Shown here: piece after piece, positions 457-48,757 of the stretch | How the letters are laid out: each line of letters begins with the position of its first letter | Numbering within the stretch: position 1 is the stretch's first letter | Source of the DNA: Kiritimatiellia bacterium | Lineage (GTDB): Bacteria > Verrucomicrobiota > Kiritimatiellia > CAIQIC01 > Lenti-01 | Direction of reading: 5' to 3' | DNA: 64,000 nt | Assembly: GCA_017540905.1 (NCBI GenBank) | Contig: JAFYAC010000029.1 | Span: 14,171-78,170 of the forward strand | Made by a program: the position numbers and the translations under genes | Notes under the pieces: generated by a model | Seen by the model: the letters and a program-made list of their open reading frames with translations, nothing else | Databases searched by the model: none | Told to the model about the DNA's origin: nothing

Positions 457-532
457 GCCGGCTTAGCTCAGTTGGCAGAGCAGCTGATTTGTAATCAGCA
501 GGTCGTCGGTTCGAATCCGTCCGCCGGCTCCA
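457..532 (+). tRNA. tRNA-Thr (anticodon UGU)
   Basis: Manual cloverleaf: acceptor GCCGGCT/CGCCGGC; D arm GCTC-AGTTGGCA-GAGC; anticodon arm GCTGA-TTTGTAA-TCAGC (anticodon TGT); T arm GTCGG-TTCGAAT-CCGTC; discriminator T; encoded CCA. There is one U-U mismatch in the T stem (506/520) and one mismatch at 7-66. Confidence 0.85.
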
Positions 533-533
533 T
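487..533 (+). repeat. attL (tRNA-Thr anticodon loop to CCA+1)
   Basis: ATTTGTAATCAGCAGGTCGTCGGTTCGAATCCGTCCGCCGGCTCCAT. It is repeated at 11545-11591 with a single difference (T520 versus A11578). Confidence 0.85.
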
Positions 534-655
534 TCTCTTCCGCTTGGAAGGGAGTGGGTTGTGGCACGCGGTGCCCGGTCCGGGGGGCGTGGGTGCCGGG
601 GGTTGGTGACGTTTTTGGTGACGAATTGCGCTTGCAATCGTCACCTTGGCGAACC

Positions 656-1852
656 ATGATGCACCTTGTGAAACCTACAGGCAAAGCAACCGGCATTTGG
701 AGAGAGCACGGCGTGACAATCCGCTATCGTGACGGGCGCCGGTGTCCATGGATGATTGACGTGGGGCGCGGCGGTTTGCGGATCCGTCGGCACTACGCGA
801 CGGAGGCGGAAGCGAGGGCGGCGGCGGTGGAGCTGTCGGCCTCGTTCACGTCCTCCGGGGTGCAAGGCTACTCGCTCACGCTGGAACAGCGCCAGGACGC
901 CGAGCGGGCCTTGGCCCTGCTCGGTGGTCGGTACACACTCGAAGAGGCGGCGCGCGGGTTCCTCGCGTCGCTGCCGACTGACGAAACGACGGTCCGCGAA
1001 CTGTCGGACGGTCTGCTTGCCTCCCTTGCCGCGAACGGGCGACGGCCCCGCACCATCAAGGGACGGGCGCAAATGCTTCGCCCGTTCGTGACCCTCTTCG
1101 GGGACCGTCCCGCTGCCGGCATCGGCTACCGGGAACTCGAGGACTGGCTTCTCGAAATCGGCAAGGGTATGTCGCCCTCCTCGCGGAATAACTACCGCAT
1201 CGCCGTCGGGACCCTCTTCGAGTACGCGGTCGCCCGTGGGTGCTGCGTGTCGAACCCTGCCCGCCGTCTGCCGGTCGCCTCGCGCGACGAAACGCTCCCG
1301 GAGGTTTTCACGCCGGACCAGGCGTCGGCGCTCATGCGCTCGGCGGTCGATGTCGACGGTGGCCGCATGGTGCCCTACTTCGCCCTCGGCCTCTTCGCCG
1401 GTCTCCGTCCCGAAAACGAGTTGCGGCGGCTTGACTGGCGCAACGTGGATTTGCGTGGGCGGATGATCCGCGTGCTACCGGCGACGGCGAAGCGGCGCCG
1501 GACGCGGTTCGTCCGCATCGTCGACAATCTGGCGGCGTGGCTCAAGCCCTATGTCCCGGAGTCGGCGGAGGGGGCGGTGTTCTTCTCGCGCCGGATGTTC
1601 CGGCGCATCATCGACGGCGCAAGCGTCACGTGGACAAAGGACGTGATGCGGCACTCCTTCGCAAGCTACCTCCTCGCCCAGTCCGGGGACGCGGCGGATG
1701 TCGCCGCGCAACTCGGACACACGCAAGGCTCGAGCGTCCTGTGGGACCACTATCGGGCGCTCGTCTCGGCCGAAGATGCGGAACTGTTCTTCGGAATCTA
1801 CCCCGCCGCGGCTGGCAAGTCCGGCGGGCGTCGACGCGGCTCGCGGCGCTGA
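656..1852 (+). CDS. int: tyrosine-type site-specific integrase
   Basis: ORF 554..1852. The C-terminal catalytic region reads RHSFASYLLAQSGDAADVAAQLGHTQGSSVLWDHYRAL (R..H-x-x-R..Y). The gene is adjacent to a tRNA. The ATG at 656 (MMHLVKPTGK) is preferred over 554 because the upstream part is G/R/P-rich and not protein-like. Confidence 0.9.
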   Translation: MMHLVKPTGKATGIWREHGVTIRYRDGRRCPWMIDVGRGGLRIRRHYATEAEARAAAVELSASFTSSGVQGYSLTLEQRQDAERALALLGGRYTLEEAARGFLASLPTDETTVRELSDGLLASLAANGRRPRTIKGRAQMLRPFVTLFGDRPAAGIGYRELEDWLLEIGKGMSPSSRNNYRIAVGTLFEYAVARGCCVSNPARRLPVASRDETLPEVFTPDQASALMRSAVDVDGGRMVPYFALGLFAGLRPENELRRLDWRNVDLRGRMIRVLPATAKRRRTRFVRIVDNLAAWLKPYVPESAEGAVFFSRRMFRRIIDGASVTWTKDVMRHSFASYLLAQSGDAADVAAQLGHTQGSSVLWDHYRALVSAEDAELFFGIYPAAAGKSGGRRRGSRR

Positions 1853-2018
1853 CGCCCGTGGGACCAGGGCAACCCCCGCACTTGCGAAAAACGGGGCGCG
1901 GGTCCCCTTCCCGCCAGCCCCCCCGAAAAATTTTCTTGTTTCGTTGACCTTGTAAAACCTTCGCGCACCTTGCGAAACTGCCGGACCTCGTTGGGCCGGG
2001 GAAATCCCTCTCCCTTTT

Positions 2019-2048
2019 TTGACAAGGGGAAAAAGTGTGCTTTATAGG
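2019..2048 (+). promoter_or_regulatory. putative sigma70-type promoter of the replication module
   Basis: TTGACA (2019-2024), a 17-18 nt spacer, then TTATAGG (2042-2048). It lies about 90 nt upstream of the ATG at 2135. Confidence 0.4.
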
Positions 2049-2134
2049 TAAGCCGCCCAAGCGAATTGTGCGGCTGACAAGTGGCAACGTCGCCAACACG
2101 GACGCGGCAACGCTGGGCATGAAAGGAAACCACA

Positions 2135-2479
2135 ATGCCCAAGACCGAAACCACGCCTCTTCTCGAAGCGGACAAGCCCCTGCGCGCTGCGCTCTACTCC
2201 ATGGCGGGCCAGTTGGCGGATGAGAAGATGAAAGCCGCCATCTGGCGCATCTTGGCGGGCGAGGACGCGCAGCCGAAACCGGCGCTCTCCGACCCTCCCC
2301 GGCAAGAAGTCTTGTCCGGGGCCGAAGCCGCCAAGATGCTCCGCGTGTCCCGCCGGACCATCACGAACCTTGCCCGAACCGGGGCCATCCAAGCCGCCAA
2401 GTTCCCCGGACGCATCCGCTCTTGCGGGTATGTCCGCGCCAGCATCGAATCCCTTCTTGCAACGAGGAAATCCCAATGA
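2135..2479 (+). CDS. AlpA/excisionase-family helix-turn-helix protein
   Basis: The C-terminal half reads LSGAEAAKMLRVSRRTITNLARTGAIQAAKFPGR, an HTH_17-like pattern. It is the first gene after the integrase, and its stop overlaps the next start (ATGA). Confidence 0.7.
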   Translation: MPKTETTPLLEADKPLRAALYSMAGQLADEKMKAAIWRILAGEDAQPKPALSDPPRQEVLSGAEAAKMLRVSRRTITNLARTGAIQAAKFPGRIRSCGYVRASIESLLATRKSQ

Positions 2480-3123
2480 GCGCCAGTCCAGAAAAAGAAA
2501 GCCGCCCTTTGGAGCAGGGCGGCGAGAAGTGGGATAGACCCGAACCCTCTTCTGCGGTGCACACTACCACGCCGCTTTTCCCCGTCAAGCCTCCCGCCGA
2601 CTTCAAGCCGCTCGCGCTGGAGTGGGCGGCGGCGGGCTTCCGCGTCATGCCGTGCGCCCCCTACAGTCACGCGCCACTGGTCCCCAGCGGCTTCGCGGCG
2701 GCGTCCTCCGATCCCGATCTCGTCCGCCTCTGGTGGAACATCTGGCCGGCTGCGAACGTCGCGGTTGCCACGGGGCGCGGCCTCGTCGGGCTTCGCCTCA
2801 ACAATCCTTTCGCCGCGACGTTGTTGAACCAAGCCGGTGCATCTCCGAAGTTCCTGCGGCGGCTCTCGTTCTCCTACCCAATCCGGCATCATGGGCGGGT
2901 GTACCTCTTCCGTTCGGATGCGCCGGTCACGTCGCGTCTGCGCGTCCTGCATCCGCGCTCGCACCTCCGCATCTTCGGGGAGGGGGACAGCCTGCTCGTT
3001 CCTCCTTCCCGACAGCACTCCTGGACATACTCGTTTCCGGGCCGAAAGCCGAAGGTGCCACCGCTGGCCTCGCTCGCGCCCTGGGCCATCATCGAACCCT
3101 ACTTGAACGGAGAATGCAAATGA
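2476..3123 (+). CDS. bifunctional primase-polymerase (PrimPol) domain protein
   Basis: ORF 2422..3123. The ATG at 2476 overlaps the upstream stop. The motif region WAAAGFRVMPCAPYSHAPLVPSGFAAASSDPDLVRLWWNIWPAANVAVATG is typical of the Prim-Pol N-terminal domain. Confidence 0.75.
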   Translation: MSASPEKESRPLEQGGEKWDRPEPSSAVHTTTPLFPVKPPADFKPLALEWAAAGFRVMPCAPYSHAPLVPSGFAAASSDPDLVRLWWNIWPAANVAVATGRGLVGLRLNNPFAATLLNQAGASPKFLRRLSFSYPIRHHGRVYLFRSDAPVTSRLRVLHPRSHLRIFGEGDSLLVPPSRQHSWTYSFPGRKPKVPPLASLAPWAIIEPYLNGECK

Positions 3124-4685
3124 CTACCCCCACTGACTGCGTACTTTCCTTCTTGGATGTCGTCGATTTCGAGAAAGACTTTCTCCTCGTTCTCGAAGCT
3201 CTTTACATCGGCTTTGGTGTTTCCGAAACTGGACTGCATGCCTATTGCCCATCTCATCTAATGCCACAACTGGACCAAGCCCTTACCTCCCTCAAGCGGA
3301 AATGCGAAGAGGAAAAACTTGAGCGTGGTACTTTTCTCCACGCTCCGGATGGACCGGTCCCTGCCGCTCTCGCTTGGCTCGAGAAACGACACGACGAAAC
3401 CGAGCTTGCTGTTCAAGATTCCGAAGTGAGCGCCGCGGAACAGACCGCCGAAGCCGCTGCCGTCCTCCGTGACGCTTCGCTGGCTTCTCCCCCAAAATCG
3501 CCCCGCGTCGAAACACCCTCCGCTGTTCCGCTCGACCTGCCCTCCGATCTCCTTCAGTTGTTGGAGTCGAATCCGGCAGAATTCATTGCCGATCTCGCCC
3601 AAGACCACAAAACCGGCAAACTCGACCTGCCGCCTTTCGTTGTCGAGGGAATGTTTCGTTGTGGCAAGTTGGTTATAGTGGCAGCGGATGGCGGTGTCGG
3701 CAAATCCTTCTTTGGTGACCAGCTCGCTATTTGTGTCGCCTCCGGCAAGCCCTTCCTGGGACGAAAAACCCGACAAATGCCCGCCCTCTATTTCGACTGC
3801 GAGATGGGCAACGCCTCCCAATTCCACCGCCTGGCCGCGCTTGCGTACCATCTTGGTGTTTCCCTTGACGATCTGCCGGTCATCCAGCGGAATGCCACCC
3901 CATTCCTGCGATATGTCACGCCCGAATATCTCGAGCGGATTTTGCTCTATGATTGCCACCGCCTCAACCTCAAACTGGGTGACTGCCTCGTGGTGTTTGA
4001 CAATCTCGCCGCGCTATCTTGTGGGGCCAATGAAAATTCCCTGCAGGATATGTCCCCCGTCATGCGTTGCCTGCGGGAAATCGTCGAGAAACACGGATGC
4101 CCCTGCGTTGTGTTCCATCACACAACCAAGGACGGCTACGACCCGCGCGGACATTCTTCCATCCGTGATTCGCTCGACGGCAATTTCCTCATCACCGGAA
4201 CGGGACCCACATGGTATTTCAAATGCGACAAGGGACGCGATATTTTCCAATTCCCAACGGAGGGTCTTGTCCGTGAATACATCCCCCGCCCCCGATTCCT
4301 GCGTTCTCGTGATGAGCTAGACACACAGCAATTTGCTGGTTTCGTTTGGAAGTCTACTGGACCCGTCAAGACGAAGTCGCCGGAGTCCGGCGACAAGCAC
4401 CAGCAGGGCATGAGCGCTGCCGAAGTCGAGCATTGCCGCGCCGTCGTGCGCTGCTTCCGCTCGCCCGACGAGAAAGTCCCGGCGACGGAACTTCGCGACC
4501 GCTACTGCAAGCTCGCCAAGGCGCAGGATCGCACCGCAAAAGCCGCCGTCAAGGATGCTGACACGCACCACTACACCAGCCGCCAAAAGGGCGGAGCGGA
4601 CGCGCGTGGTGTGCTCCGCACCCTCACTTCGAAGGGCCGCGGCGAGTGGCAAAAGCTCCACGGCACGACGGCGGAAGCGGAGTAG
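3120..4685 (+). CDS. AAA_25 / RepA-like (RecA-fold) replicative helicase-type ATPase
   Basis: Same frame as ORF 2622..4685. The ATG at 3120 overlaps the PrimPol stop (ATGA). Walker A reads VIVAADGGVGKSF, Walker B-like reads CLVVFDNLAAL, and HHTTKDG follows. Confidence 0.75.
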   Translation: MTTPTDCVLSFLDVVDFEKDFLLVLEALYIGFGVSETGLHAYCPSHLMPQLDQALTSLKRKCEEEKLERGTFLHAPDGPVPAALAWLEKRHDETELAVQDSEVSAAEQTAEAAAVLRDASLASPPKSPRVETPSAVPLDLPSDLLQLLESNPAEFIADLAQDHKTGKLDLPPFVVEGMFRCGKLVIVAADGGVGKSFFGDQLAICVASGKPFLGRKTRQMPALYFDCEMGNASQFHRLAALAYHLGVSLDDLPVIQRNATPFLRYVTPEYLERILLYDCHRLNLKLGDCLVVFDNLAALSCGANENSLQDMSPVMRCLREIVEKHGCPCVVFHHTTKDGYDPRGHSSIRDSLDGNFLITGTGPTWYFKCDKGRDIFQFPTEGLVREYIPRPRFLRSRDELDTQQFAGFVWKSTGPVKTKSPESGDKHQQGMSAAEVEHCRAVVRCFRSPDEKVPATELRDRYCKLAKAQDRTAKAAVKDADTHHYTSRQKGGADARGVLRTLTSKGRGEWQKLHGTTAEAE

Positions 4686-4722
4686 TCCGCGCCGCCGTCG
4701 GCCCCCACAATCCAGTCTCCCC

Positions 4723-4748
4723 CAATCCCCGGTCCCCGCCGGGGATTG
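4723..4748 (+). terminator. GC hairpin after the helicase gene (no U tract)
   Basis: CAATCCCCGG-tccccg-CCGGGGATTG, 38 nt after the stop at 4685. Confidence 0.3.
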
Positions 4749-4752
4749 GTGC

Positions 4753-5091
4753 ATAGGTGCAAAAGGTGCAATTTCTGCATCCTTGCACCTTTCGCGCCCG
4801 CGCCAGTATTGGCTTTTCCTTGCGATAGGTGCAAAAGGTGCAAGCCCGCGCCCGCCCGCGCGCTCAAAAAAAAACTTCTTCAAACCCCAGGACTTCGAGG
4901 GCGGTGGGAGGAGGTGTCTCCCCCCCGCCGCGGGGGAGGGGGAGGAGGGGCCCCCCTCCCCCCCCCGGGGGGGAGACGATAACCTCCTACCACCTCCCGG
5001 TCCTCGGGGTCCTGGGAAAGGGAAAAAATAGGTGCAACCCCTCCCCCTTATAGTTGCACCTTTTGCACCTTTGCACCTATCGGTCTTTCGG
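4753..5091. repeat. iteron cluster / putative replication origin of the element
   Basis: ATAGGTGCAAAAGGTGCAA occurs at 4753-4771 and 4825-4843. ATAGGTGCAA occurs at 5039-5048. The inverted set TTGCACCTTTTGCACCTTTGCACCTAT is at 5065-5091. An A9 tract (4866-4874) and a G/C-homopolymer palindrome (4908-4988) lie between the sets. Confidence 0.55.
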
Positions 5092-5188
5092 GACCGCGAA
5101 CGGGGCGGCGTTGGTCGCTGCCGGACGCGGGCGTCGGCGGTGGTCCTCCTGGACCTCCGCGCGCCCGGTCGGGCAGGGGTGGCGGTCG

Positions 5189-5518
5189 TTAGGCCCGGTC
5201 CGCGTCCGCGCCGTAGCCGGGGCGCTTCTTGGGGATGTACCCGGAAAGGATGTCCTTGAATGCGCGGGCGCGGGCGATGGCCGGCGGGTAGCCGACGGCG
5301 GCGAGGGCCGCGGCCAAAACGTTGCGGTCCTCCTTCGCCCATTCGTCGTACTCCTGGCGCAAGTCCAAAAGCCAGCCCTCGGGCGTGCTCTTGTGCAACG
5401 ACATGTCCCACCAGACAATGCACGCGACGTGCGCGCGAATCTGGCGGGGAAACTCGAGGGCGCGCACCTGCGCCTCCCACTTCTCAAACGGTGCTTTTCT
5501 CCATTTCGGCGTCGGCAT
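5189..5518 (-). CDS. hypothetical protein (109 aa)
   Basis: ORF with ordinary amino-acid composition (MPTPKWRKAPFEKWEAQVRALEF...WAKEDRNVLAAALAAVGYPP). I recognise no motif. Confidence 0.55.
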   Translation of the reverse strand: MPTPKWRKAPFEKWEAQVRALEFPRQIRAHVACIVWWDMSLHKSTPEGWLLDLRQEYDEWAKEDRNVLAAALAAVGYPPAIARARAFKDILSGYIPKKRPGYGADADRA

Positions 5519-5586
5519 GATACCCTTCTACACCAAGCCGGGCGGCGGCGCAAGCTCGCCGTTCCGGCGGCTGGCACGATCTGGGC

Positions 5587-5614
5587 TTGACGGCCCGGTG
5601 CGCTCTGGTAGAGT
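5587..5614 (+). promoter_or_regulatory. putative promoter for the 5750 gene
   Basis: TTGACG (5587-5592), a 16-nt spacer, then TAGAGT (5609-5614). It lies in the divergent intergenic region. Confidence 0.3.
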
Positions 5615-5749
5615 GCGCCCGTTCGCCGCTTTTGCGGTGGGCCGTCGAGATAGAAGCCGACGCCAACAGAAAACCACTTTGCCCGTTTGTCATGTGCCGG
5701 GGCTCTCGCCTCGCTTCTATCGCATGACTGACGGGTTTTTGGTGAGTAC

Positions 5750-6187
5750 ATGAAAAAGCAGAATGCGAAACAGGACACGGACGCGGCGGTGGTCGCGGAA
5801 CTTCAAAGCCATGACTGGAACGACACCCCTCGGGCATACTCGAAGCGGCTCCAGCAGTTGGCGCGGGACGAAGGAAAGCGCCTCTGGGAAGAGCGCGAAA
5901 CGTGGGGCGCGGGATGCAAGGGGTTTCTCGACTTCATGCATGCAGGGGAAAAACTGTTTCTTGACGGCCCCTACAACACCCATGACATCAAAGCCGCCTC
6001 CGGCCTCGCCCGCTCCCTCGCTTCGCGCCTCGCGAATGTTCCGCCCGAACTTGCGGACGAAGTTCGCAAGGCGGCGCGGCGTCTGGATGCCTTGGCCAAC
6101 CTCTGCACCCTGTACGTGTTCGGCGTCCGGGAATCCCTGGGCAAGCAACAGGACAAGGCACTCGACGCCGGGAAGATTCCCGTCTGA
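5750..6187 (+). CDS. hypothetical protein (145 aa)
   Basis: ORF MKKQNAKQDTDAAVVAELQSHDWNDTPRAYSKRLQQLARDEGKRLWEERE... The composition is protein-like. I recognise no motif. Confidence 0.6.
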   Translation: MKKQNAKQDTDAAVVAELQSHDWNDTPRAYSKRLQQLARDEGKRLWEERETWGAGCKGFLDFMHAGEKLFLDGPYNTHDIKAASGLARSLASRLANVPPELADEVRKAARRLDALANLCTLYVFGVRESLGKQQDKALDAGKIPV

Positions 6188-6358
6188 CGCTCCGGCTCCT
6201 CCTTGCCCTCATCTGCCCTCTCCCGCTGGCCGGGAGGGGGCTTTCTGTTGTCGGACGGCTCGTTGCCGGGGTCGCGGTCTCCGGCGCGTCTCCGGCCAAC
6301 GTCGGCGGAATGCGGGGCCTCGGCGCAGTCCACTATCACTCTGGGATTTTCAGGACTT

Positions 6359-7282
6359 TTACTTCCACCAGTCTTTGACGTCCTGCGCAGCAAACCACGA
6401 CTGCTCGCGATCCTTGGGAAGCGGCTCGCCGTGAATGATTTCGTAGGCCCTCCGGGCGTAGGCCTCGTTGGCCTTGCGCTCCTTGTGCTTCGCGATTTCG
6501 CTCCGGGTCATGTCTTGGGCAATGTAGCCGTGCGCCACTCCCTTCCCCTCCAGCAATCCACGCGCCGCCCAGCTCATTTCCTTCCCCGTGGCTGCCGGGG
6601 CCTTCGCCACCGCGGTCGCGACTTCCCGCGCCCGGACCAGTTCCTGCACCGCCGCCGCCTGTTCCTCCTTGCACCGCAAAAGCAGGGCCTGTTTCTCCAT
6701 GCTCTTCTTGAACGCGGCTTCCTCTGCTTTGCGGGCGGCTTCTTTTTGGGCCAGCGTCTGGGCGGTCATGCGCCGCACTCTGGCTTTCTCCCATTCCCGG
6801 ACCGCCACCTCCGCCGCCTCGTTCCTCGCCTTGTACTCCGCGCCTTTCTTCGCCACTTCCCGCTCGGCTTCCGACAGCACCCCTTTTGCCCATGTCTGTT
6901 CTGCGGTCGCCCTCGCGGCACCCTTCGTGGCTCCCTTCGCGGCGGTCTTGCCTCCCGCGCCAGCCCCACCTATGGCAAACGATGCGGCCATCACGCCAAG
7001 CTCGGCGGCAATCTTCGACACCTTGGAATCCCATCCCGTCTGCTGGTAGGTGTGGGTCATGCCCACCATGTCGCTCAAGCCGAATGTCGCGGAATTGAAG
7101 ATGTTCGCAATCCCCGCCACCGCGCCCTCCTTGAAGCCGTCCCAGGCGCCTTTCAGAACTTCCGATGTCGAAACCGGCTCCGGCTTGTAGGGGTTCCGGG
7201 CTGCGGCGGCGGCGTTTCCGCCGTTCATGCGCGCGAACATCGCGCGGCGTTGTTCTTCGGTCATGGTTTGCGTGGTTGGCAT
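6359..7282 (-). CDS. hypothetical protein with Gly/Ala-rich hydrophobic segment and long charged helical region (307 aa)
   Basis: ORF MPTTQTMTEEQRRAMFARMNGG...IAAELGVMAASFAIGGAGAGGK...EAEREVAKKGAEYKARNEAAEVAVREWEKARVRR... An AGGAGA-type RBS precedes the ATG. Confidence 0.65.
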   Translation of the reverse strand: MPTTQTMTEEQRRAMFARMNGGNAAAAARNPYKPEPVSTSEVLKGAWDGFKEGAVAGIANIFNSATFGLSDMVGMTHTYQQTGWDSKVSKIAAELGVMAASFAIGGAGAGGKTAAKGATKGAARATAEQTWAKGVLSEAEREVAKKGAEYKARNEAAEVAVREWEKARVRRMTAQTLAQKEAARKAEEAAFKKSMEKQALLLRCKEEQAAAVQELVRAREVATAVAKAPAATGKEMSWAARGLLEGKGVAHGYIAQDMTRSEIAKHKERKANEAYARRAYEIIHGEPLPKDREQSWFAAQDVKDWWK

Positions 7283-7308
7283 GGTCGTTCTCCTTGGCTT
7301 TGCTGCCT

Positions 7309-7337
7309 TGACTACGCGCGTTCTCGCGAGGTGTCAA
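7309..7337 (-). promoter_or_regulatory. putative promoter of the 307-aa gene
   Basis: On the minus strand: TTGACA (7337-7332), a 17-nt spacer, then TAGTCA (7314-7309). Confidence 0.3.
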
Positions 7338-7339
7338 AT

Positions 7340-9339
7340 TTGGGCGTATCGCCCCCATTAGCCGCATGGGATTTGTTGGTTTTCGCCTCGGCCGGTTCGC
7401 GCCGCAGTCCCCCCACGGGGGACGGCCCCGCAGGGGCGGCGGACAGCAGGGGGGCATGGGTGCACAAGCCGCATAGTCCCCCCGACGGGGGACGGTGCGC
7501 GCAGCGCAATGCGGAAAGGGGGCCCGCGAAGGCAACGGAGGAGGGCGGCGACGGAAGGGGAGGACCTAGGAGCGCCAGCGACGACGGGCCGATTCCGTCG
7601 ACGTTCTCCGGGAGGTGCCGACCATTCGAGACCCGGCTTTGCGGGGCGAGCGGGCCGGGGTCGGGCGCCCTGTAGGGCCAGCAGCATCCCCCCATCAAAC
7701 CGACGCTCTCCACGGATGGGGGGGTGGTGATGGCCCGGAAGGTGAAGCGGTGAGAATGCGCCCGCCTGTGTCCCCCCTGCCCTCTCTCCCCCTGCCGGAC
7801 GCCGCATCGAAGAGGGGTTTGGGAGGAAGGGGGTCGGAGGGGGAGGGAGGGAAGGGGGGAAACAGGTTTGCCCCGGCCCATCAATCGAAACGAATCCACC
7901 GCATTCCCGACCGACGGAAGCCGGTTGAAGAGGAAACCGGCGCGTCCGGCGGTCGGCGTGCCACCTGCACGCGGGGACGTTGCCGTCGAGGTCTTGTCTG
8001 GCTCCGCCGCGCGTTCTTGGTGGCACGCAAAGGGTGGTGAGTTTGGGGGATGGTGGGCGGGTGCCTTGTTTACCGGTCCAAGCACGGGAGGGGCGGCGAC
8101 GTGCCGGACGGGGGGGCTTGGTCCGGCGTGGAGCCGCCCCGTCGCCGGTCGGCGGACCGCCTTGGGAGTCTGGTGCCCTTGTGGTGCCAGTCTACCAGGG
8201 CGAGGACGCCGGACGGCGGGAAACGGAACGGCGGAACGATGAGTCGCCCGGAGTGAAGGTCGGACGGGAGCGGAGCGCCGTGGGCGGGAACACCTGGACC
8301 GCCGCCGGCGGCGAAGCGGACGGGAGACCGCAACGGAGCGGAGAGTCTTCGTGGAGCCGCACCGCATCGGGGGGGCAGGGTGTCGGGGCGGCAGCCATGA
8401 GGGAGGCGGGTGGGCGCTTCTCGGCCGATCCTGCGGGCCGGCGGAGGCGCGTAGCGGTGGAGCCGTCCCGCGTGTCGGCCGTCGGTCGCGCCCGATCCGC
8501 GCGCGGCGCGTGTCGGGCGTGGAAATTGGGGGGACGGCCGGAGCGGGAATCCGTTGGCGGGACGCCGACGGATCCAGAGCGGAGGACGTAGCCTTGCGGG
8601 GGGGGTGGGGGTATCGGGGGCAAGCCCCCGTGCCGCGGGGTTCAAGGGGGCGCGTAGCCCCCTCGGCGGGGGGAAAGGGGCGCGCAGCCCCTGGGCGGGG
8701 GCTCCGGGGCGCGTAGCCCCGAAAGCAGGGGCGGGGGCGCAGCCCCGAAGCCGCAGGGGCTAGGGGCGTCAGCCCCAGTCGGGGGGAGAGGGGGCGTGCC
8801 CCCCTTGCCGGGGGGTAAGGGGCGCGTAGCCCCAGCCTGCCGCCGCGCGCAGCGCGTTCGCGGCTGCGAGGGGGCGAGGGGGCGAAGGCCCCCCGTGGGA
8901 AGCGTGGGAAGGGCGCCAGCCCGCGTCCCACGCGCCGCAAGCCGGGAGGGCGGCAGGGCGTCGGCCCGCGTCCGCCCGTCGCCGCGTGAGCGGCGGGAAA
9001 GGGGTGAGCGCCCGCCCCCTGCGGAGCGCCAGCGACAAGGGGGGCCGGAGGGACGCGCAAGCGGCCCGGAGTGGGGCGCGGTCGCCTTTGGGGGGGCGGG
9101 GGTACGGGGGCTGTGCCCCTGTAGTACGGAGACGGGAGGGGGGGTGCGCCCGCCCCCAGAGGAGCGCCAGCGACGAAGGGGGTCGAGCCGACGCGCCAGC
9201 GGCGGCGAAGTGGGGCGCAATCCGCTTTTGCCTCCCTCGGGGACGCGGAGCGTGGGGAAGGGGTGTGGGGGAACGGGCGGAGGGGGTTCCCCCACAAGTG
9301 GCAGGGGCGGGCCGGTCGTGGCCCGTCCCTGCTCTGTTC
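7340..9339. other. ~2-kb ORF-poor, G-skewed (plus strand), hairpin- and repeat-rich segment
   Basis: Every ORF in all six frames translates to R/G/P/A-rich low-complexity text. The segment contains dense GGGG..CCCC hairpins, G-run tracts (for example 7813-7859) and internal repeats. Confidence 0.5.
8616..8893 (+). repeat. degenerate ~29-nt tandem array of GGGGC-N4-5-GCCCC hairpins (9 units)
   Basis: Hairpins start at 8616, 8646, 8677, 8706, 8734, 8763, 8790, 8819 and 8878. The consensus is GGGGCGCGTAGCCCC. Confidence 0.6.
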
Positions 9340-9723
9340 TCAATCGCCCCACTCGACGGGGACGGCATCGTCGACGCCTCGGGTGAGGCTGCGCAAGTCC
9401 ACCTCGGCACGCCAAACCCGCACCCAAAACCCTACAAGCTCGCCAAAGCGCACCCCGCCCTTTTCGGTGCTGTGCTCGCGCTCGGTCTCGATGGCGTAGG
9501 CCTCCGCTTGCGAGGGCCATTCGCACCTGCACTTGTCGGGGTTCGCCCGTGGCCCTCCCTTGTGGGAGTAGTCCGGCGTTCTGTCGGCGTTCATGTAGTA
9601 GGCGCGGCAATCAACGTAGAGATTCGGCCCGCGGGCCTTGTCTCGGAGGAATCGCGCCAGTTCTTCACGGGTCAACAGGCGGTCCGGGTCGGTGACTGCT
9701 TCGAGGGTCATGTAGATTTTCAT
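9340..9723 (-). CDS. hypothetical protein (127 aa), third gene of the PRTase operon
   Basis: ORF MKIYMTLEAVTDPDRLLTREELARFLRDKARGPNLYVDCRAYYMNADRTPDYSHKGG... A GAGGAGG RBS precedes the start. It begins 12 nt after the upstream gene. Confidence 0.6.
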   Translation of the reverse strand: MKIYMTLEAVTDPDRLLTREELARFLRDKARGPNLYVDCRAYYMNADRTPDYSHKGGPRANPDKCRCEWPSQAEAYAIETEREHSTEKGGVRFGELVGFWVRVWRAEVDLRSLTRGVDDAVPVEWGD

Positions 9724-9735
9724 CGGTGGGCCTCC

Positions 9736-10020
9736 TCAAGAAATGATGCCGTCGGCGTAGAACGCCCCGCGCGAGCCTGCAACCGTCGCGGCCTCCATCA
9801 CGCGCGCGAACGTCGCCAGGACGAAAGCAAAAGCCTTGTCTTCGCAGTAGCCCAGGGCGGCGACCTCTTCGAGCGTGGTCTTTTCGGTGATGTCCCCATC
9901 TGCCACCCCAGCCTCCAGCCAAAGGCTAAAATCGTCCTCGTCATTGACGCATCGGGCGACCAGTTCCATAGCCTTAACAAGGCGGGCGCGGCGTTCGGTT
10001 TTCTCGTTCATCGTGGTCAT
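9736..10020 (-). CDS. hypothetical acidic protein (94 aa), second gene of the PRTase operon
   Basis: Internal ATG of ORF 9736..10203, giving MTTMNEKTERRARLVKAMELVARCVNDEDDFSLWLEAGVADGDITEK... The part of the ORF upstream of this ATG is P-rich and not protein-like. Confidence 0.55.
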   Translation of the reverse strand: MTTMNEKTERRARLVKAMELVARCVNDEDDFSLWLEAGVADGDITEKTTLEEVAALGYCEDKAFAFVLATFARVMEAATVAGSRGAFYADGIIS

Positions 10021-10054
10021 GGTGTCGTGTCCTTTCTGCCGGGGGTCCGGCGGT

Positions 10055-10876
10055 TCATTTTTCAAACAGGGGGAGGGCCGCGGTGGCTTCCACGTCCAAG
10101 TCCGGGAGCAGTCGCGCGGGGGTGTTGGTGGTGTTGGCGAGGGCCAGCAGGGCCGCACCGGGAAGCGCTTCGAGGGCGGCGCTTGCGGTGGCGCCCGTGT
10201 CAATGACGTTATCGAGGATGACGGTGGGGCGGTCCGTCGGCGGTGTGCGGATGGCGCGCATGGAGATTCGGGCGGGCTTCTGGCCGCGCTTCTTCTGGGT
10301 GTAGTTCGCTTCGTGGGGATTGGAGCGGAGCGCGTCTAGGACTTCGGCATCTGGCGCGAGGGCGGCGATGGCGTCCGCGAGTGCCCGGATGGTCGTGGGG
10401 TAGCCGTGGCGGGACGGCATGGGGACAATGACGGCACGGCGCGGAAGCAGGGGCGCGAGGCGGCGGGCGCTCTCCTCAATCGCCGCGAGCGCACCGCTCT
10501 TGACTTCGCGGGCGAGGTTCCGGAGGACTCCTTCGTAGCTGCCAAGCGTGCGCACCTGGGCGGGCCGGGCCGGACCGGCGGGGCGCGGCGCGTCGTTGTC
10601 GGCCGGTCTGCACCAGGCTTGCCGTCCGTTGTTCCATCGGTAGCCGTTCGCGGCGAGCATGGCGCGGTGTGGGTAGGTCGCGCCCCATACCCACACAAAA
10701 CCCTCCGCCACCTTCGAGCGGACGCCGGGAAGGGTTTCCACGCCGTCAAGGGCGGGCGTTTTTCGGATAGCTTTTGTGGGTCTCGCCCCTCTCTTCATCT
10801 GCGAGACTTCGAGCGTCCGGGGGGCGGCATTCTGGGGGAGAAAGCAAATGGACAAGGTGGTTTCGGTAGGGTTCAT
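10055..10876 (-). CDS. ComF-like phosphoribosyltransferase-domain protein with an N-terminal small W/Y-rich domain
   Basis: Internal ATG of ORF 10055..11119 (MNPTETT) with the RBS ACAGGAGAACC. The PRT motif reads PTVILDNVIDTGATASAALEAL, preceded by PMPSRHG...ANYTQKKRGQKPARISMRAI, as in ComF-type proteins. The N-terminal region reads FVWVWGATYPHRAMLAANGYRWNNGRQAWC. Confidence 0.65.
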   Translation of the reverse strand: MNPTETTLSICFLPQNAAPRTLEVSQMKRGARPTKAIRKTPALDGVETLPGVRSKVAEGFVWVWGATYPHRAMLAANGYRWNNGRQAWCRPADNDAPRPAGPARPAQVRTLGSYEGVLRNLAREVKSGALAAIEESARRLAPLLPRRAVIVPMPSRHGYPTTIRALADAIAALAPDAEVLDALRSNPHEANYTQKKRGQKPARISMRAIRTPPTDRPTVILDNVIDTGATASAALEALPGAALLALANTTNTPARLLPDLDVEATAALPLFEK

Positions 10877-10939
10877 GTAGGTTCTCCTGTTTTTTTCGGT
10901 AGCCTTTGTTGGGGTGGCTCGTTGCCCTCTCTTCACCCG
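10856..10939. repeat. left arm of ~80-bp imperfect inverted repeat (covers 5' UTR, RBS and first 7 codons of the PRTase gene)
   Basis: The reverse complement aligns to 11197-11271 at about 80% identity. The shared core is AAAAACAGGAGAACC-NNN-ATG-RACCC. Confidence 0.7.
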
Positions 10940-11196
10940 AACAGGCGTGCCGGTCCCGATCCCCTGGCCGGGGTCCCCTCGGGGTGGCCAAAGGGGTTCG
11001 GGATGATTTTCGGAAAGCTCAACTGGGGGGGAAAGGGGATGCCCCGCCCCCTGCGGAGAGACAAGGGGGGTCGAGCGTAGCGAGTGGGGCGCTTGCGCCC
11101 GCCCCCTGCGGAACGACAAGGGGGGTTGAGCCGCCCCGCGGCGAAGTGGGGGCGTCCCCCCGTCGGAGACCCTTACTTTCCGAAAATCAAGGTAGC

Positions 11197-11271
11197 CGGG
11201 TGGAGAGAGGGCAATGGGCCACCCCCGCCACCAAAAACAGGAGAACCGAAATGGACCCGGACGGAACCACC
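11197..11271. repeat. right arm of the inverted repeat, facing attR
   Basis: CGGGTGGAGAGAGGGCAATGGGCCACCCC..AAAAACAGGAGAACCGAAATGGACCC..GGAACCACC. An inner 13-bp perfect inverted repeat is also present: GATTTTCGGAAAG at 11005-11017 and CTTTCCGAAAATC at 11176-11188. Confidence 0.7.
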
Positions 11272-11544
11272 CCGCCGCATTCCCCCAGAATGCCGTCCCC
11301 CGGACGCGATACCTTATTGGGCTGGCACGATTCCGGCACGGGTTGGCACGATTCCACCGCGGGCGCTCCGGACGCTCCCTCGCTTGGTGACGTTTGGTGA
11401 CGCCTCAAGGTGTGAAAAGGTGCCAAAAGGTGCCTTTTCGGCCTCTCCCGCGGAACTTGCGATTTCCGCCAAAAACTACGCAAGCGCGCTCTCTGCAAGG
11501 AGTAGCGCGCTTGTCCCCTCCACCCCCTTTCCCCCGTTCATGTC

Positions 11545-11591
11545 ATTTGTAATCAGCAGGTCGTCGGTTCGAATCCGACCGCCGGCTCCAT
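11545..11591 (+). repeat. attR (displaced 3' part of tRNA-Thr)
   Basis: 46/47 identical to 487-533. There is no 5' half, so this is not a functional tRNA gene. Confidence 0.85.
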
Positions 11592-11617
11592 CATTTTTCG
11601 GGCGCCTTCCCGCCTCC

Positions 11618-13635: not shown

Positions 13636-13698
13636 TTTTCCAACCATTGGAAAAAAAGTTTCCAACCATTGGAAAAAATTTTTCCAATCATTGGAAAA
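13636..13698. repeat. tandem array (3 copies) of the AT-rich palindrome TTTTCCAA(C/T)CATTGGAAAA
   Basis: Copies start at 13636, 13659 and 13679. The same family is present at 38021-38146. Confidence 0.8.
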
Positions 13699-13720
13699 CT
13701 TTTCCGCCGCCAGTCCCACT

Positions 13721-38020: not shown

Positions 38021-38146
38021 CCCGGAAAAATTTTTCCAATCATTGGAAAAACCAGGCAAATTTTTCCAACCATTGGAAAAATATTTTCCAATCATTGGAA
38101 AAAACGGCCCGAGTTTTCCAACCATTGGAAAAAAAGTTTCCAATCA
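38021..38146. repeat. tandem array (5 copies) of the AT-rich palindrome TTTTCCAA(T/C)CATTGGAAAA (family P1)
   Basis: Copies start at 38021, 38051, 38073, 38103 and 38126. AATCATT and AACCATT centres alternate, and spacers are 3-12 nt. Confidence 0.85.
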
Positions 38147-38171
38147 TTGGAAAAAAATGGGCCGGGTTTTG

Positions 38172-47866: not shown

Positions 47867-48757
<891 letters not shown>

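What the first reader, a model, noticed from the sequence alone, without database searches (positions are those of the whole stretch)
487..11591. tRNA-Thr-integrated 11-kb element with a phage-satellite (PICI/P4-like) layout
A 47-bp direct repeat (46/47 identical) equal to the tRNA-Thr 3' part brackets the element. Inside are an integrase, an AlpA-like HTH protein, a PrimPol and an AAA_25 helicase (the last three translationally coupled by ATGA overlaps). An iteron origin follows immediately 3' of the helicase, and then about 6 kb of orphan cargo. I see no capsid, terminase, tail, relaxase or type IV secretion genes. The order int - alpA - pri/rep - ori - accessory genes is the one described for phage-inducible chromosomal islands and related satellites. 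As far as I know, those are characterised mostly in Proteobacteria and Firmicutes. A copy in a high-GC PVC-like genome would extend that range, and its cargo would be a natural place for uncharacterised phage-interference functions.
Basis: partly seen in the sequence, partly recalled or inferred. Interest (0 to 1): 0.7.

Follow-up and report, generated by a model that had tools for sequence, protein, structure and literature searches.

The report
Candidate phage satellite in rumen Kiritimatiellae
An 11-kb mobile island sits in a threonine tRNA gene of a rumen bacterium. It belongs to an undescribed family of small self-replicating islands that carry copies of phage head and DNA-packaging genes, so they probably travel inside the particles of other viruses.

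Summary
tRNA-Thr(TGT) lies at 457-532. A 47-nt direct repeat (46/47 identical) at 487-533 and 11545-11591 brackets 11,058 bp. Inside are an integrase, an HTH_17 excisionase-like gene, Prim-Pol and an AAA_25 helicase (ATGA-coupled), followed by an iteron cluster.

The host is a rumen Kiritimatiellae bacterium. The "orphan cargo" has three parts:
- a conserved module (o5189, o5750, o6359);
- about 1.9 kb of GC-rich non-coding DNA;
- a window-specific insertion of three accessory genes.

Homologues of o5189 and o6359 define a family of 10.0-11.1-kb tRNA-integrated islands (L022/L023, L024, L027). These have other integrases and replication genes. One relative was assembled across an attP-type junction.

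The N-terminal domain of o6359 recurs in uncultured phages. There it ends the portal-adjacent Mu-type protease polyprotein and starts the next head-module protein. Three relatives also carry a homologue of the small ORF directly upstream of that phage's large terminase, which is the small-terminase position. The window copy lacks it.

No tested PICI or P4 hijack gene is present. No empty site, helper phage or packaging evidence was found for this copy. Verdict: a new candidate satellite family, moderate interest.

The parts
457..532 (+). tRNA-Thr(TGT), the integration target. Its 3' part is now supplied by the element.
   Evidence: ARAGORN and Rfam at 62 bits. Position 520 is T here. It is A in the attR copy and in two unoccupied tRNA-Thr genes of relatives, L014 and L015. 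The T gives a U.U mismatch in the T-stem.
487..533 (+). attL core (47 nt)
   Evidence: D5.
603..623 (+). TTGGTGACG doublet, a candidate integrase arm-type site. It pairs with the doublet at 11384-11402.
   Evidence: four of the six copies in the 64 kb lie at the two element ends, where 0.5 are expected. A related island, L018, has an analogous GTTGAC doublet near both of its ends (D2).
656..1852 (+). Tyrosine integrase (398 aa)
   Evidence: PF00589 at 2e-12 and phrog_1 at 3e-35. Homologues 45-51% identical head other small tRNA-integrated islands.
2135..2479 (+). HTH_17 excisionase/AlpA-like DNA-binding protein (114 aa)
   Evidence: PF12728 at 3e-8. Excisionase PHROGs 66, 2907 and 7735. TIGR01764 at 1.4e-5, below its cutoff.
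2476..3123 (+). Prim-Pol primase-polymerase (215 aa). ATGA overlap with the upstream gene.
   Evidence: PF09250 at 1.8e-16. It is 35% identical to the Prim-Pol domain of the 798-aa Prim-Pol/DUF3987 proteins of L022 and L024.
3120..4685 (+). RepA-like hexameric helicase (AAA_25, 521 aa). ATGA overlap with Prim-Pol.
   Evidence: PF13481 at 2e-27. RSF1010 RepA 1g8y at 1e-4. It is 27-35% identical to phage primase-helicases over the ATPase core only. It has almost no close relatives.
4744..5081 (.). Iteron origin. AGGTGCAA repeats run direct (4755-4843) and inverted (5054-5078) around a GC-rich palindrome (4899-4977).
   Evidence: L024 has different iterons (GATGGAAAGAA) at the same place, next to its different replication gene.
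5189..5518 (-). o5189, a 109-aa family-core protein of unknown function
   Evidence: It is 65-71% identical in L022, L024 and L027 at the same position. There is no family hit. The AF2 model is a five-helix bundle at pLDDT 66, and fold searches gave no match.
5750..6187 (+). o5750, a 145-aa protein, divergent from o5189
   Evidence: It is 92% identical in L024-L026. L022 and L027 have an unrelated 106-aa gene in its place. A promoter-like site lies at 5587-5614.
6212..6329 (+). Non-coding block that is almost invariant. A terminator hairpin (6215-6241) is followed by about 75 nt of unknown role.
   Evidence: It is 92% identical to L022, L024 and L027, although the flanking genes are only 40-80% identical. 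It is the top terminator hit.
6359..7282 (-). o6359, a 307-aa all-helical protein. An N-terminal domain of about 125 aa is shared with phage head-module proteins, followed by a variable A/E/K-rich long helix and a conserved C-terminus.
   Evidence: Full HMMER search. P0120 and P0122 are Mu-type head protease polyproteins that carry this domain at the C-terminus. Both lie next to Portal_Mu in phage contigs L028 and L029, and the next protein starts with the same domain. AF2 is all-alpha with a helix at 121-226, at low confidence. Homologues 41-51% identical occur in L022, L024 and L027.
7311..9228 (.). GC-rich (0.73-0.79) non-coding region with many short hairpins. It is colinear with the 1.5-1.6-kb non-coding stretches of its relatives.
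   Evidence: No codon periodicity: GC1/2/3 is .74/.73/.75. Islands of 90-93% identity lie among indel-rich DNA. There is no Rfam family. Fold z-scores are ordinary. The 661-aa ORF called here in public assemblies is probably spurious.
9229..11318 (-). Window-specific accessory insertion. It holds o9340 (9340-9723), o9736 (9736-10020) and o10055 (10055-10876), the last a DUF5710-like motif (from memory; not a Pfam hit) plus a weak PRTase-like C-terminus. It also holds the inverted repeat 10813-10939 / 11197-11307.
   Evidence: It is absent from L024 and L022, where the flanking blocks abut. It is bracketed by copies of a 35-70-nt unit (D4, D6 and D12). There are no Pfam, PHROG or PADLOC hits beyond weak PRTase. 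Similarities of o9736 and o10055 to phage L028 ORFs are weak.
11319..11440 (.). Cluster of binding sites near the att end: TGGCACGATTCC repeats, a TTGGTGACG doublet and AAGGTGCC repeats.
   Evidence: 11319-11371 is 92% identical to L022 and L024 at the same distance from their att cores. The fold z-score is -2.3 to -2.5, owing to the inverted site arrangement.
11545..11591 (+). attR core. It is the displaced original 3' end of tRNA-Thr and carries the ancestral A at 11578.
   Evidence: D5.

Best explanation
This is an 11,058-bp integrative, self-replicating island of a rumen Kiritimatiellae bacterium. It is inserted by its tyrosine integrase into the 3' end of tRNA-Thr(TGT). It belongs to an undescribed family of 10-11-kb islands that most likely live as phage satellites.

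Proposed cycle:
1. A trigger, presumably a helper phage, leads the HTH_17 protein and the integrase to excise the island. The sites used are the 47-nt core and the repeated arm sites.
2. Prim-Pol and the RepA-like helicase replicate the circle from the AGGTGCAA iterons.
3. o6359 enters or reshapes the helper's procapsid. It is a free-standing copy of a domain that these phages carry on their protease-scaffold polyprotein and on the next head protein. It could act as an alternative internal scaffold or as an encapsidated, injected protein.
4. In relatives, a homologue of the phage gene in the small-terminase position redirects packaging. The window copy has no such gene, so it must use the helper's own small terminase on a mimicked signal, or it is packaging-defective.

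Shown: the integration anatomy, the replication module and iterons, the family, and the homology to phage head and terminase-adjacent genes. Also shown is the joined-ends contig of a relative. Inferred: induction by a helper, entry into capsids, and packaging.
For: - Integration. The direct repeat equals the tRNA 3' part. The attR copy keeps the ancestral A seen in unoccupied tRNA-Thr genes L014 and L015, while the working tRNA carries the element's T. Arm-type doublets lie at both ends. Coding GC of the element is 0.64, against 0.70 for the host.
- Replication. Prim-Pol and AAA_25. The iterons are exclusive to 4755-5078. L024 has different iterons next to a different replication gene.
- Family. 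Homologues of o5189 (65-71%), o5750 (92%) and o6359 (41-51%) lie in the same order and orientation in L022/L023, L024 and L027. Their integrases are only about 30% identical to this one, and they sit in tRNA-Lys. Sizes are 10,033, 10,062 and 11,058 bp.
- Joined ends. L023 runs from the integrase side through the core to the cargo side. L002 equals window 490-11577 with a 30-nt terminal overlap.
- Phage link. The o6359 N-domain lies in P0120 and P0122, which match Mu-like_Pro at 6e-25 and phrog_328 head maturation protease. Both sit next to Portal_Mu in L028 and L029, and the downstream 603-aa and 584-aa proteins start with the same domain. The 106-128-aa proteins of L022, L024 and L027 are 41-49% identical (E 1e-19 to 1e-20) to the ORF that overlaps the start of L028's large terminase, itself phrog_2 at 2.6e-40.
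- No tail, lysis, portal, capsid, relaxase or T4SS genes.
- Precedent. PICMI satellites have only int, alpA and prim, with ATGA overlaps and no capsid-remodelling genes (PMC10803314). Virion-encapsidated islands have been mapped to Verrucomicrobia (PMC9618062).
Against: - No helper phage was identified. The window holds no prophage with the o6359 motif.
- There is no packaging or virome evidence. IMG/VR holds no relative of the helicase, o6359, o10055, the o6359 N-domain or the TerS-like protein.
- The window copy lacks the TerS-like gene.
- The TerS assignment rests on gene position and on weak DUF5681 hits. It has no PHROG or PDB support.
- The o6359 model has low confidence, pLDDT 53. Its N-domain also follows Rhs-type DPxGL motifs in P0125 and P0131, so it could be a membrane-active toxin or effector rather than a scaffold.
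- All three contigs that share the identical flanking permease are occupied. No empty site or attP contig was found for this copy.
- Joined-end contigs from k=31 assemblies can also arise from tandem copies or from graph simplification.
Confidence: 0.58

Rival explanations
1. It is an integrative, plasmid-like replicative island with no obligate link to a phage. It excises, replicates from its iterons and spreads by other routes such as vesicles, transformation or mobilisation. The phage-like genes are ordinary mosaic cargo exchanged with local phages.
For: The int-xis-rep-ori plan is generic. Integrase relatives head varied small islands that lack the o6359 module, namely L018, L019 and L021. 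No helper or virion evidence exists. The helicase resembles plasmid RSF1010 RepA. The o6359 N-domain also occurs in Rhs-type toxins.
Against: Across islands with different integrases and replication genes, the most conserved part is the module that carries the phage head-domain protein. In 3 of 4 members a homologue of the terminase-adjacent gene accompanies it. Size is tightly kept at 10.0-11.1 kb. No relaxase, oriT-type, partition or T4SS gene is present.
Confidence: 0.22
2. It is a decaying family member. The window copy was once a functional satellite but lost its TerS-like gene and gained junk DNA. It is now a fixed, immobile genomic island.
For: The TerS-like gene is absent between 7294 and 7311, exactly where L027 has it. 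The non-coding region is expanded by hairpin-rich insertions. No empty site or attP contig was found for this copy. The T-stem mismatch has persisted in the tRNA.
Against: All ten ORFs are intact and show normal codon periodicity. The att cores match at 46 of 47 positions. Arm-site doublets and iterons are intact. Logan contig L002 ends in the 30-nt overlap expected of a closed circle. TerS-less satellites exist, for example PICMI (PMC10803314).
Confidence: 0.15
3. It is a remnant of a degraded prophage.
For: It has a phage-type integrase, excisionase-like HTH and primase-helicase. The closest integrase homologue, L016 at 51% identity, heads a larger prophage-like region with RusA, ERF and a DEAD helicase.
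Against: The same compact architecture and size recur in independent islands at other tRNAs, with intact genes. No fragment of portal, capsid, tail or lysis genes appears in any frame. One relative has its ends joined.
Confidence: 0.04

Closest known systems
PICIs (SaPIs, EcCICFT073-type; as defined in SatelliteFinder, PMC10085698)
   Same: Site-specific integrase, excisionase/AlpA-type HTH, its own primase-helicase plus iteron origin, a size of about 10-15 kb, and no tail or lysis genes. Relatives carry a TerS-position homologue, as SaPIs carry terS. o6359 shares a domain with the presumed helper's scaffold-type polyprotein. From my own knowledge, SaPI CpmB similarly shares the capsid-binding end of the helper's scaffold.
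   Different: There is no sequence homology to PICI core genes. Only 3 of 5 core components are present in the window ('Type C'). No stl-type repressor lies next to int. The hijack-type genes lie after the origin. The host is Kiritimatiellae and the insertion is in a tRNA.
PICMIs of Vibrionaceae (PMC10803314)
   Same: A minimal int-alpA-primase core with ATGA-overlapped genes and no recognisable capsid-remodelling genes. Relatives L022, L024 and L027 even have a gene overlapping int by 4 nt, like the PICMI iolg.
   Different: PICMIs are about 6 kb, integrate next to fis and have no head-protein or TerS homologue. Here the islands are 10-11 kb, sit in tRNAs, and carry the o5189/o6359 module plus 1.5-2 kb of non-coding DNA.
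VEIMEs, virion-encapsidated integrative mobile elements (PMC9618062)
   Same: Small integrase-bearing islands with primase-helicase, AlpA, sometimes TerS homologues closest to co-occurring phages, and mostly orphan genes. Hosts include Verrucomicrobia.
   Different: VEIMEs are defined by recovery as concatemers from virions, which was not tested here. They are marine. The Verrucomicrobia-linked module mostly uses serine recombinases.
P4-like satellites
   Same: The order int - alpA - primase/helicase (alpha) - accessory genes, and a size of about 11 kb.
   Different: No Sid, Psu, Delta or Epsilon homologue is detectable, and no cos site was looked for. The primase-helicase is split into Prim-Pol and a RepA-like helicase.
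Tycheposons of Prochlorococcus (bioRxiv 10.1101/2020.12.28.424599)
   Same: From my own knowledge of the paper, not read here: tyrosine-recombinase islands that target tRNA ends, often with a replicative primase-helicase module and variable cargo, some of them satellite-like.
   Different: Different host phylum. No shared genes were tested. The integrase clade was not compared.
MuF polymorphic toxins of temperate phages (PMC5576092)
   Same: As I recall that paper, which I did not read here, a phage head-morphogenesis protein carries a variable C-terminal effector domain thought to travel in the capsid. P0120 and P0122 likewise fuse a head protease to the o6359-type domain.
   Different: Here the carrier is a Mu gpI-type protease polyprotein rather than MuF. 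In the islands the domain is free-standing and followed by a long coiled-coil-like helix.

Membership tests
tRNA-integrated tyrosine-recombinase genomic island | Direct repeat equal to a tRNA gene end, bracketing the island, with the integrase next to one end | tested here: met
   Polarity is confirmed by the ancestral A in attR and in the unoccupied tRNA-Thr genes L014 and L015.
tRNA-integrated tyrosine-recombinase genomic island | An empty-site allele or an excised circle is observed | tested here: inconclusive
   All contigs sharing the identical flanking permease are occupied. Related genomes L010 and L011 lose synteny at about 11609-11612 and have no tRNA nearby. L002 has a 30-nt terminal overlap. 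The attP-type contig is seen only for the relative L023.
PICI (SatelliteFinder model, PMC10085698) | Integrase | tested here: met
   PF00589 and phrog_1.
PICI (SatelliteFinder model, PMC10085698) | AlpA-type regulator | tested here: inconclusive
   HTH_17 and excisionase-family hits only. There is no Phage_AlpA hit.
PICI (SatelliteFinder model, PMC10085698) | Primase/replicase (pri-rep) with an adjacent origin | tested here: met
   Prim-Pol, the AAA_25 helicase and the iterons. The match is functional. Homology to PICI Pri-Rep profiles was not tested.
PICI (SatelliteFinder model, PMC10085698) | Small terminase (terS) | tested here: not met
   The window has no terminase family hit. The profile of the family's TerS-position protein finds nothing in six frames, best E 0.5. 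Relatives L022, L024 and L027 do carry it.
PICI (SatelliteFinder model, PMC10085698) | Capsid-morphogenesis or packaging-interference gene (ppi, cpm, rpp) | tested here: not met
   No PHROG or Pfam hit. o6359 is a candidate analogue by domain sharing with phage head proteins, but it is not a homologue of the known genes.
PICI (SatelliteFinder model, PMC10085698) | Absence of tail and holin genes | tested here: met
   No such PHROG hits above noise.
PICI, PICMI or any phage satellite | Induction by a helper phage and packaging in its particles | not testable with these tools
   This needs read-level or virome data, or culture. IMG/VR scans found no relatives.
P4-like satellites | Sid, Psu, Delta, Epsilon and a P4 alpha-type primase | tested here: not met
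   No PHROG or Pfam hits for these in the ten ORFs. tblastn of o6359 and o10055 against 50,697 phage records gave no match.
PICMI (PMC10803314) | Integration next to fis, about 6 kb, a three-protein core only, Vibrionaceae host | tested here: not met
   The island is in tRNA-Thr and is 11,058 bp with ten ORFs. The host is Kiritimatiellae.
VEIME (PMC9618062) | Recovered as concatemers from virus particles | not testable with these tools
   No virion long-read data were available.
ICE or integrative mobilisable element | Relaxase, oriT, T4SS or coupling protein | tested here: not met
   No such Pfam or NCBIfam hits. The only hit is a noise-level TIGR03747 match at 0.005, 16 bits against a cutoff of 138.
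Defence island | A known anti-phage system | tested here: not met
   PADLOC gives no significant hit.

The most novel reading that the evidence does not exclude
These islands are a new family of phage satellites of PVC bacteria with a hijack module unlike any described one. The module is a free-standing copy of a domain cut out of the helper's protease-scaffold polyprotein. This copy begins with the same MTEEQRRAMFA-type linker motif that separates the segments of the phage polyprotein. It may therefore use that motif as a ticket into the procapsid. A helper-derived small terminase accompanies it, along with 1.5-2 kb of patchily conserved non-coding DNA that serves as a packaging signal or as a size stuffer. 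The window copy would be a TerS-less variant that relies on the helper's own terminase.
Probability: 0.35. Interest if true: 0.7.

Novelty: new variant of a known kind. Interest (0 to 1): 0.55.

Why it matters
Phage satellites shape gene flow and phage resistance. Well-characterised families come mainly from Proteobacteria and Firmicutes, with marine surveys hinting at far more.

If this reading is right, it gives a defined, recognisable satellite family for rumen and gut Kiritimatiellae, a group with no cultured phage-host systems. The signature genes are o5189 and o6359, with or without the TerS-like gene. The att sites are tRNA-Thr and tRNA-Lys, and there is a candidate helper phage type (Portal_Mu - protease polyprotein - o6359-domain protein).

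It would also point to a possible capsid-targeting or cleavage motif shared between helper and satellite. Such a mechanism could be tested directly by proteomics of virions.

If it is only a replicative island, it remains a clean example of modular exchange between phages and small islands in an under-studied phylum.

Tried and rejected
- Empty site. The identical downstream permease was found on 3 contigs, all occupied. The start guessed at 13090 was not on record. The GTDB relatives RUG11196 and RGIG6649 lose synteny just outside attR and have no tRNA there, so they cannot serve as empty sites. A core-sequence scan of JGI metagenomes gave only two unoccupied tRNA-Thr genes in other genomic contexts. 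The same scan of IMG/VR gave none.
- Close relatives of the helicase. There are none in IMG/VR or in the GTDB genomes, and only three hits near 27% identity among 5.8 billion proteins.
- IMG/VR scans for o6359, o10055, the o6359 N-domain profile and the TerS-like profile found nothing.
- tblastn of o6359 and o10055 against cultured phages gave no match.
- PADLOC and NCBIfam on all ORFs gave nothing useful.
- PDB sequence searches of o5189, o5750, o6359, o10055 and the TerS-like profile returned noise.
- AF2 of o6359 was too uncertain to fold-search, at pLDDT 53.
- AF2 of o5189 gave no significant match in the PDB. In BFVD it gave only two marginal uncharacterised phage proteins at E 0.15.
- A protein-coding reading of 7312-9297 was rejected because there is no codon periodicity.
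- A structured-RNA reading of the non-coding blocks is not supported. There is no Rfam family, and z-scores run from -0.5 to -1.6.
- An invertible switch at 10813-11307 has no support, because every public copy has the same orientation.
- A tblastx of the phage contigs against the window gave only compositional noise and was discarded.

Full report
**Observation**

ARAGORN finds tRNA-Thr(TGT) at 457-532. The repeat finder returns 487-533 and 11545-11591 as a direct repeat, 46 of 47 identical and 11,058 bp apart (D5). No other 18-mer of this tRNA occurs elsewhere in the 64 kb. The four named genes are real:
- integrase, 656-1852 (PF00589 at 2e-12, phrog_1 at 3e-35);
- an HTH_17 excisionase-type protein, 2135-2479 (3e-8);
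- Prim-Pol, 2476-3123 (2e-16);
- an AAA_25 helicase, 3120-4685 (2e-27), which resembles RSF1010 RepA.

The ATGA overlaps at 2476 and 3120 are in the sequence. All nine AGGTGCAA octamers of the window lie in 4755-5078, direct on the left and inverted on the right of a GC-rich palindrome, where about one is expected. No structural, lysis, conjugation or defence family is hit.

**Integration anatomy**

The single mismatch in the core is informative. Two unoccupied tRNA-Thr genes of related organisms (L014, L015) carry A at that position. So does the attR copy. The working tRNA at attL carries T, which puts a U.U mismatch in the T-stem. The 3' end of the tRNA is therefore element-derived, and the displaced original lies at attR. 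This is expected after integration with crossover 5' of the mismatch. TTGGTGACG doublets sit just inside both ends, with 4 of the 6 copies in the window there. A related island, L018, has an analogous doublet at both of its ends. Coding GC is 0.64 against 0.70 for the host, and GC3 is 0.64-0.87 against 0.90-0.92.

**Host and empty site**

The flanking permease is 98% identical to those of two rumen MAGs, RUG11196 and Kiritimatiellae bacterium RGIG6649. The host is therefore a rumen Kiritimatiellae bacterium. Their synteny with the window stops at about 11609-11612. They differ from each other beyond that point and have no tRNA nearby, so they are not empty sites. Every contig with the identical permease carries the island. 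The island occurs at 100% identity in several ruminant metagenomes. Logan contig L002 is exactly window 490-11577, and its first and last 30 nt are identical. This fits a closed circle in a k=31 assembly. It also fits a graph break at the shared 33-nt core, so I do not count it as proof.

**The cargo is not uniform**

It has three parts.
1. o5189, o5750 and o6359 are conserved elsewhere.
2. 7311-9228 has no codon periodicity (GC1/2/3 = .74/.73/.75, against roughly .65/.50/.80 for the real genes). The 661-aa ORF that public gene calls place there is most likely spurious.
3. 9229-11318 holds o9340, o9736 and o10055 and is specific to this copy.

**A family**

The helicase has almost no relatives. 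o6359 does. Its homologues, 41-51% identical, lie in L022/L023, L024 and L027. These islands share one layout:
- tRNA-Lys, integrase (437 aa), a 270-aa protein, HTH_17 and a 145-aa protein;
- a replication gene, either Prim-Pol/DUF3987 or AAA_25 plus a 308-aa protein, followed by iterons;
- an o5189 homologue (65-71% identical), then a small gene (an o5750 homologue at 92% in L024), then the o6359 homologue;
- a 106-128-aa protein, 1.5-1.6 kb of GC-rich non-coding DNA, and the att core.

Their integrases are only about 30% identical to the window's. The o5189/o6359 module is therefore the conserved signature, while integration and replication modules are swapped. L024 is bounded by perfect 52-nt repeats 10,062 bp apart. 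L022 is 10,033 bp, and the window island is 11,058 bp. L023 is a circular permutation of L022. It runs from the integrase side through the core into the cargo side, which is an attP-type junction implying circular, concatemeric or tandem copies. Integrase homologues 45-51% identical head further small tRNA-bounded islands with primase-helicases but without this module. These include L018 (7,045 bp, in the 5' half of tRNA-Arg) and L021 (8,876 bp).

**Link to phages**

The first 125 residues or so of o6359 begin with MTEEQRRAMFAR..GG, followed by a glycine-rich hydrophobic FGL(T/S)D…G.TH segment. The same domain recurs at the C-terminus of P0120 (778 aa) and P0122 (1182 aa). The N-termini of those proteins are Mu-type head maturation proteases (PF10123 at 6e-25, phrog_328). 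P0120 lies in the phage contig L028 and P0122 in L029. Each sits directly after Portal_Mu. Each is followed by a 603-aa or 584-aa protein that again starts with the o6359-type domain. L028 also encodes a major head protein and a large terminase. In the polyproteins the motif recurs three or four times after 'LAN(A/R)', like a linker or cleavage signal.

The 106-128-aa proteins that precede o6359 homologues in L022, L024 and L027 are 41-49% identical (E 1e-19 to 1e-20) to the L028 ORF that overlaps the start of the large terminase. That is the canonical small-terminase position. Family support for the assignment is weak, only DUF5681. The window has no such gene in any frame. It is missing cleanly between 7294 and 7311 when compared with L027. 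The AF2 model of o6359 is all-helical with a helix of about 105 residues, but it has low confidence.

**Non-coding conservation**

The block 6212-6329 is nearly invariant among four islands whose flanking genes are 40-80% identical. It starts with the o5750 terminator. The GC-rich region is colinear among the islands, with islands of 90-93% identity in indel-rich DNA. The block 11319-11371 (TGGCACGATTCC repeats) is 92% conserved near the att end. There is no Rfam family and no unusual folding energy. I cannot say what these stretches do. Candidates are a packaging signal, a late promoter region or a size stuffer.

**Interpretation**

It is near-certain that this is an integrative, self-replicating mobile element. 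I put the probability at about 0.6 that the family lives as phage satellites. The reasons are a terminase-adjacent gene homologue plus a head-module domain and nothing else structural, a narrow size range, joined-end contigs, and the precedent of minimal satellites (PMC10803314, PMC9618062). The window copy may be a TerS-less variant or a defective one.

It is not a PICI or a P4 member. Only 3 of the 5 PICI core components are present, a state the SatelliteFinder authors do not accept as PICI (PMC10085698), and no P4 genes are detectable. The o6359 domain also follows Rhs-type DPxGL motifs. An injected membrane-active effector, in the manner of MuF toxins (PMC5576092, as I recall it), is therefore as plausible as an alternative scaffold.

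**Novelty**

I found no paper on satellites or prophage-type islands of this kind in Kiritimatiellae. Satellites in marine Verrucomicrobia are already reported. I rate this a new variant of a known kind, with moderate interest.

Noticed in passing
window 505-521 (position 520): The working tRNA-Thr carries a U.U mismatch in its T-stem (T506 opposite T520). The element-supplied 3' end has T where the ancestral gene has A, as seen in the attR copy and in L014 and L015.
   Followed up: partly
window 7311-9228: About 1.9 kb of 73-79% GC non-coding DNA full of short GGGGC…GCCCC hairpins. It is colinear with the non-coding stretches of related islands, with islands of 90-93% identity. Public gene calls annotate a 661-aa ORF here that shows no codon periodicity.
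   Followed up: partly
window 6212-6329: A 115-nt block that is almost invariant among four islands whose neighbouring genes are much more divergent. It consists of a terminator hairpin plus about 75 nt of unknown role.
   Followed up: partly
window 10813-10939 and 11197-11307: A 125-nt inverted repeat (82-96% identical). It duplicates the ribosome-binding site, start codon and first codons of o10055, and the copy faces the att end, opening a 49-codon ORF at 11251-11400. After excision, transcription from this copy would read across attP towards int. All public copies have the same orientation.
   Followed up: partly
window 8996-9203 and 11043-11131: Copies of a 35-70-nt unit (GCGCCCGCCCCCTGCGGAGCGCCAGCGAC…) bracket the window-specific three-gene insertion. 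The unit is also present twice in L024 (8408-8572). This suggests a recombination hot spot for cargo.
   Followed up: partly
window 13638-13702 and 38034-38152: Host intergenic arrays of the palindrome TTCCAAYCATTGGAA at a 22-30-nt period, with three and five copies. They are also seen in the related MAG loci L010 and L011.
   Followed up: no
P0120, P0122, P0126 (phage proteins); window 7282-7214 (-): A repeated linker, 'LAN(A/R)..M(S/T)(D/E)EQR(K/R)AMFAR.GGG', separates segments of the phage protease polyproteins. It also forms the very N-terminus of the o6359 family. It may be a protease cleavage site or a capsid-targeting signal.
   Followed up: partly
L018 4958-5033 and 12036-12078: A 7,045-bp island with a related integrase is bounded by a perfect 43-nt repeat of the 5' half of tRNA-Arg(CCT). 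This is an unusual 5'-side tRNA insertion. The island carries a DUF5681 protein.
   Followed up: no
L019 7648-7693 and 9842-9887 (same in L020): Two perfect 46-nt tRNA-Arg-like 3' fragments lie 2,194 bp apart, upstream of a related integrase. This suggests tandem islands or leftover att sites.
   Followed up: no
L024 388-7862: Just outside the att repeat of the related island lies a block of N6_N4_Mtase, MethyltransfD12, an AAA_15/23 ATPase and a 1,042-aa ResIII-like protein. It looks like a restriction or defence-type locus abutting the island.
   Followed up: no
L022 7580-8410 and 8407-9720 (also L024, L027): In the tRNA-Lys relatives, a 270-278-aa gene overlaps the integrase gene by 4 nt. 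This is reminiscent of the int-overlapping gene (iolg) described for PICMI satellites.
   Followed up: no
window 47972-48688: A second, distant tyrosine-recombinase homologue, 25% identical to the island integrase by tblastn. It was not examined further.
   Followed up: no
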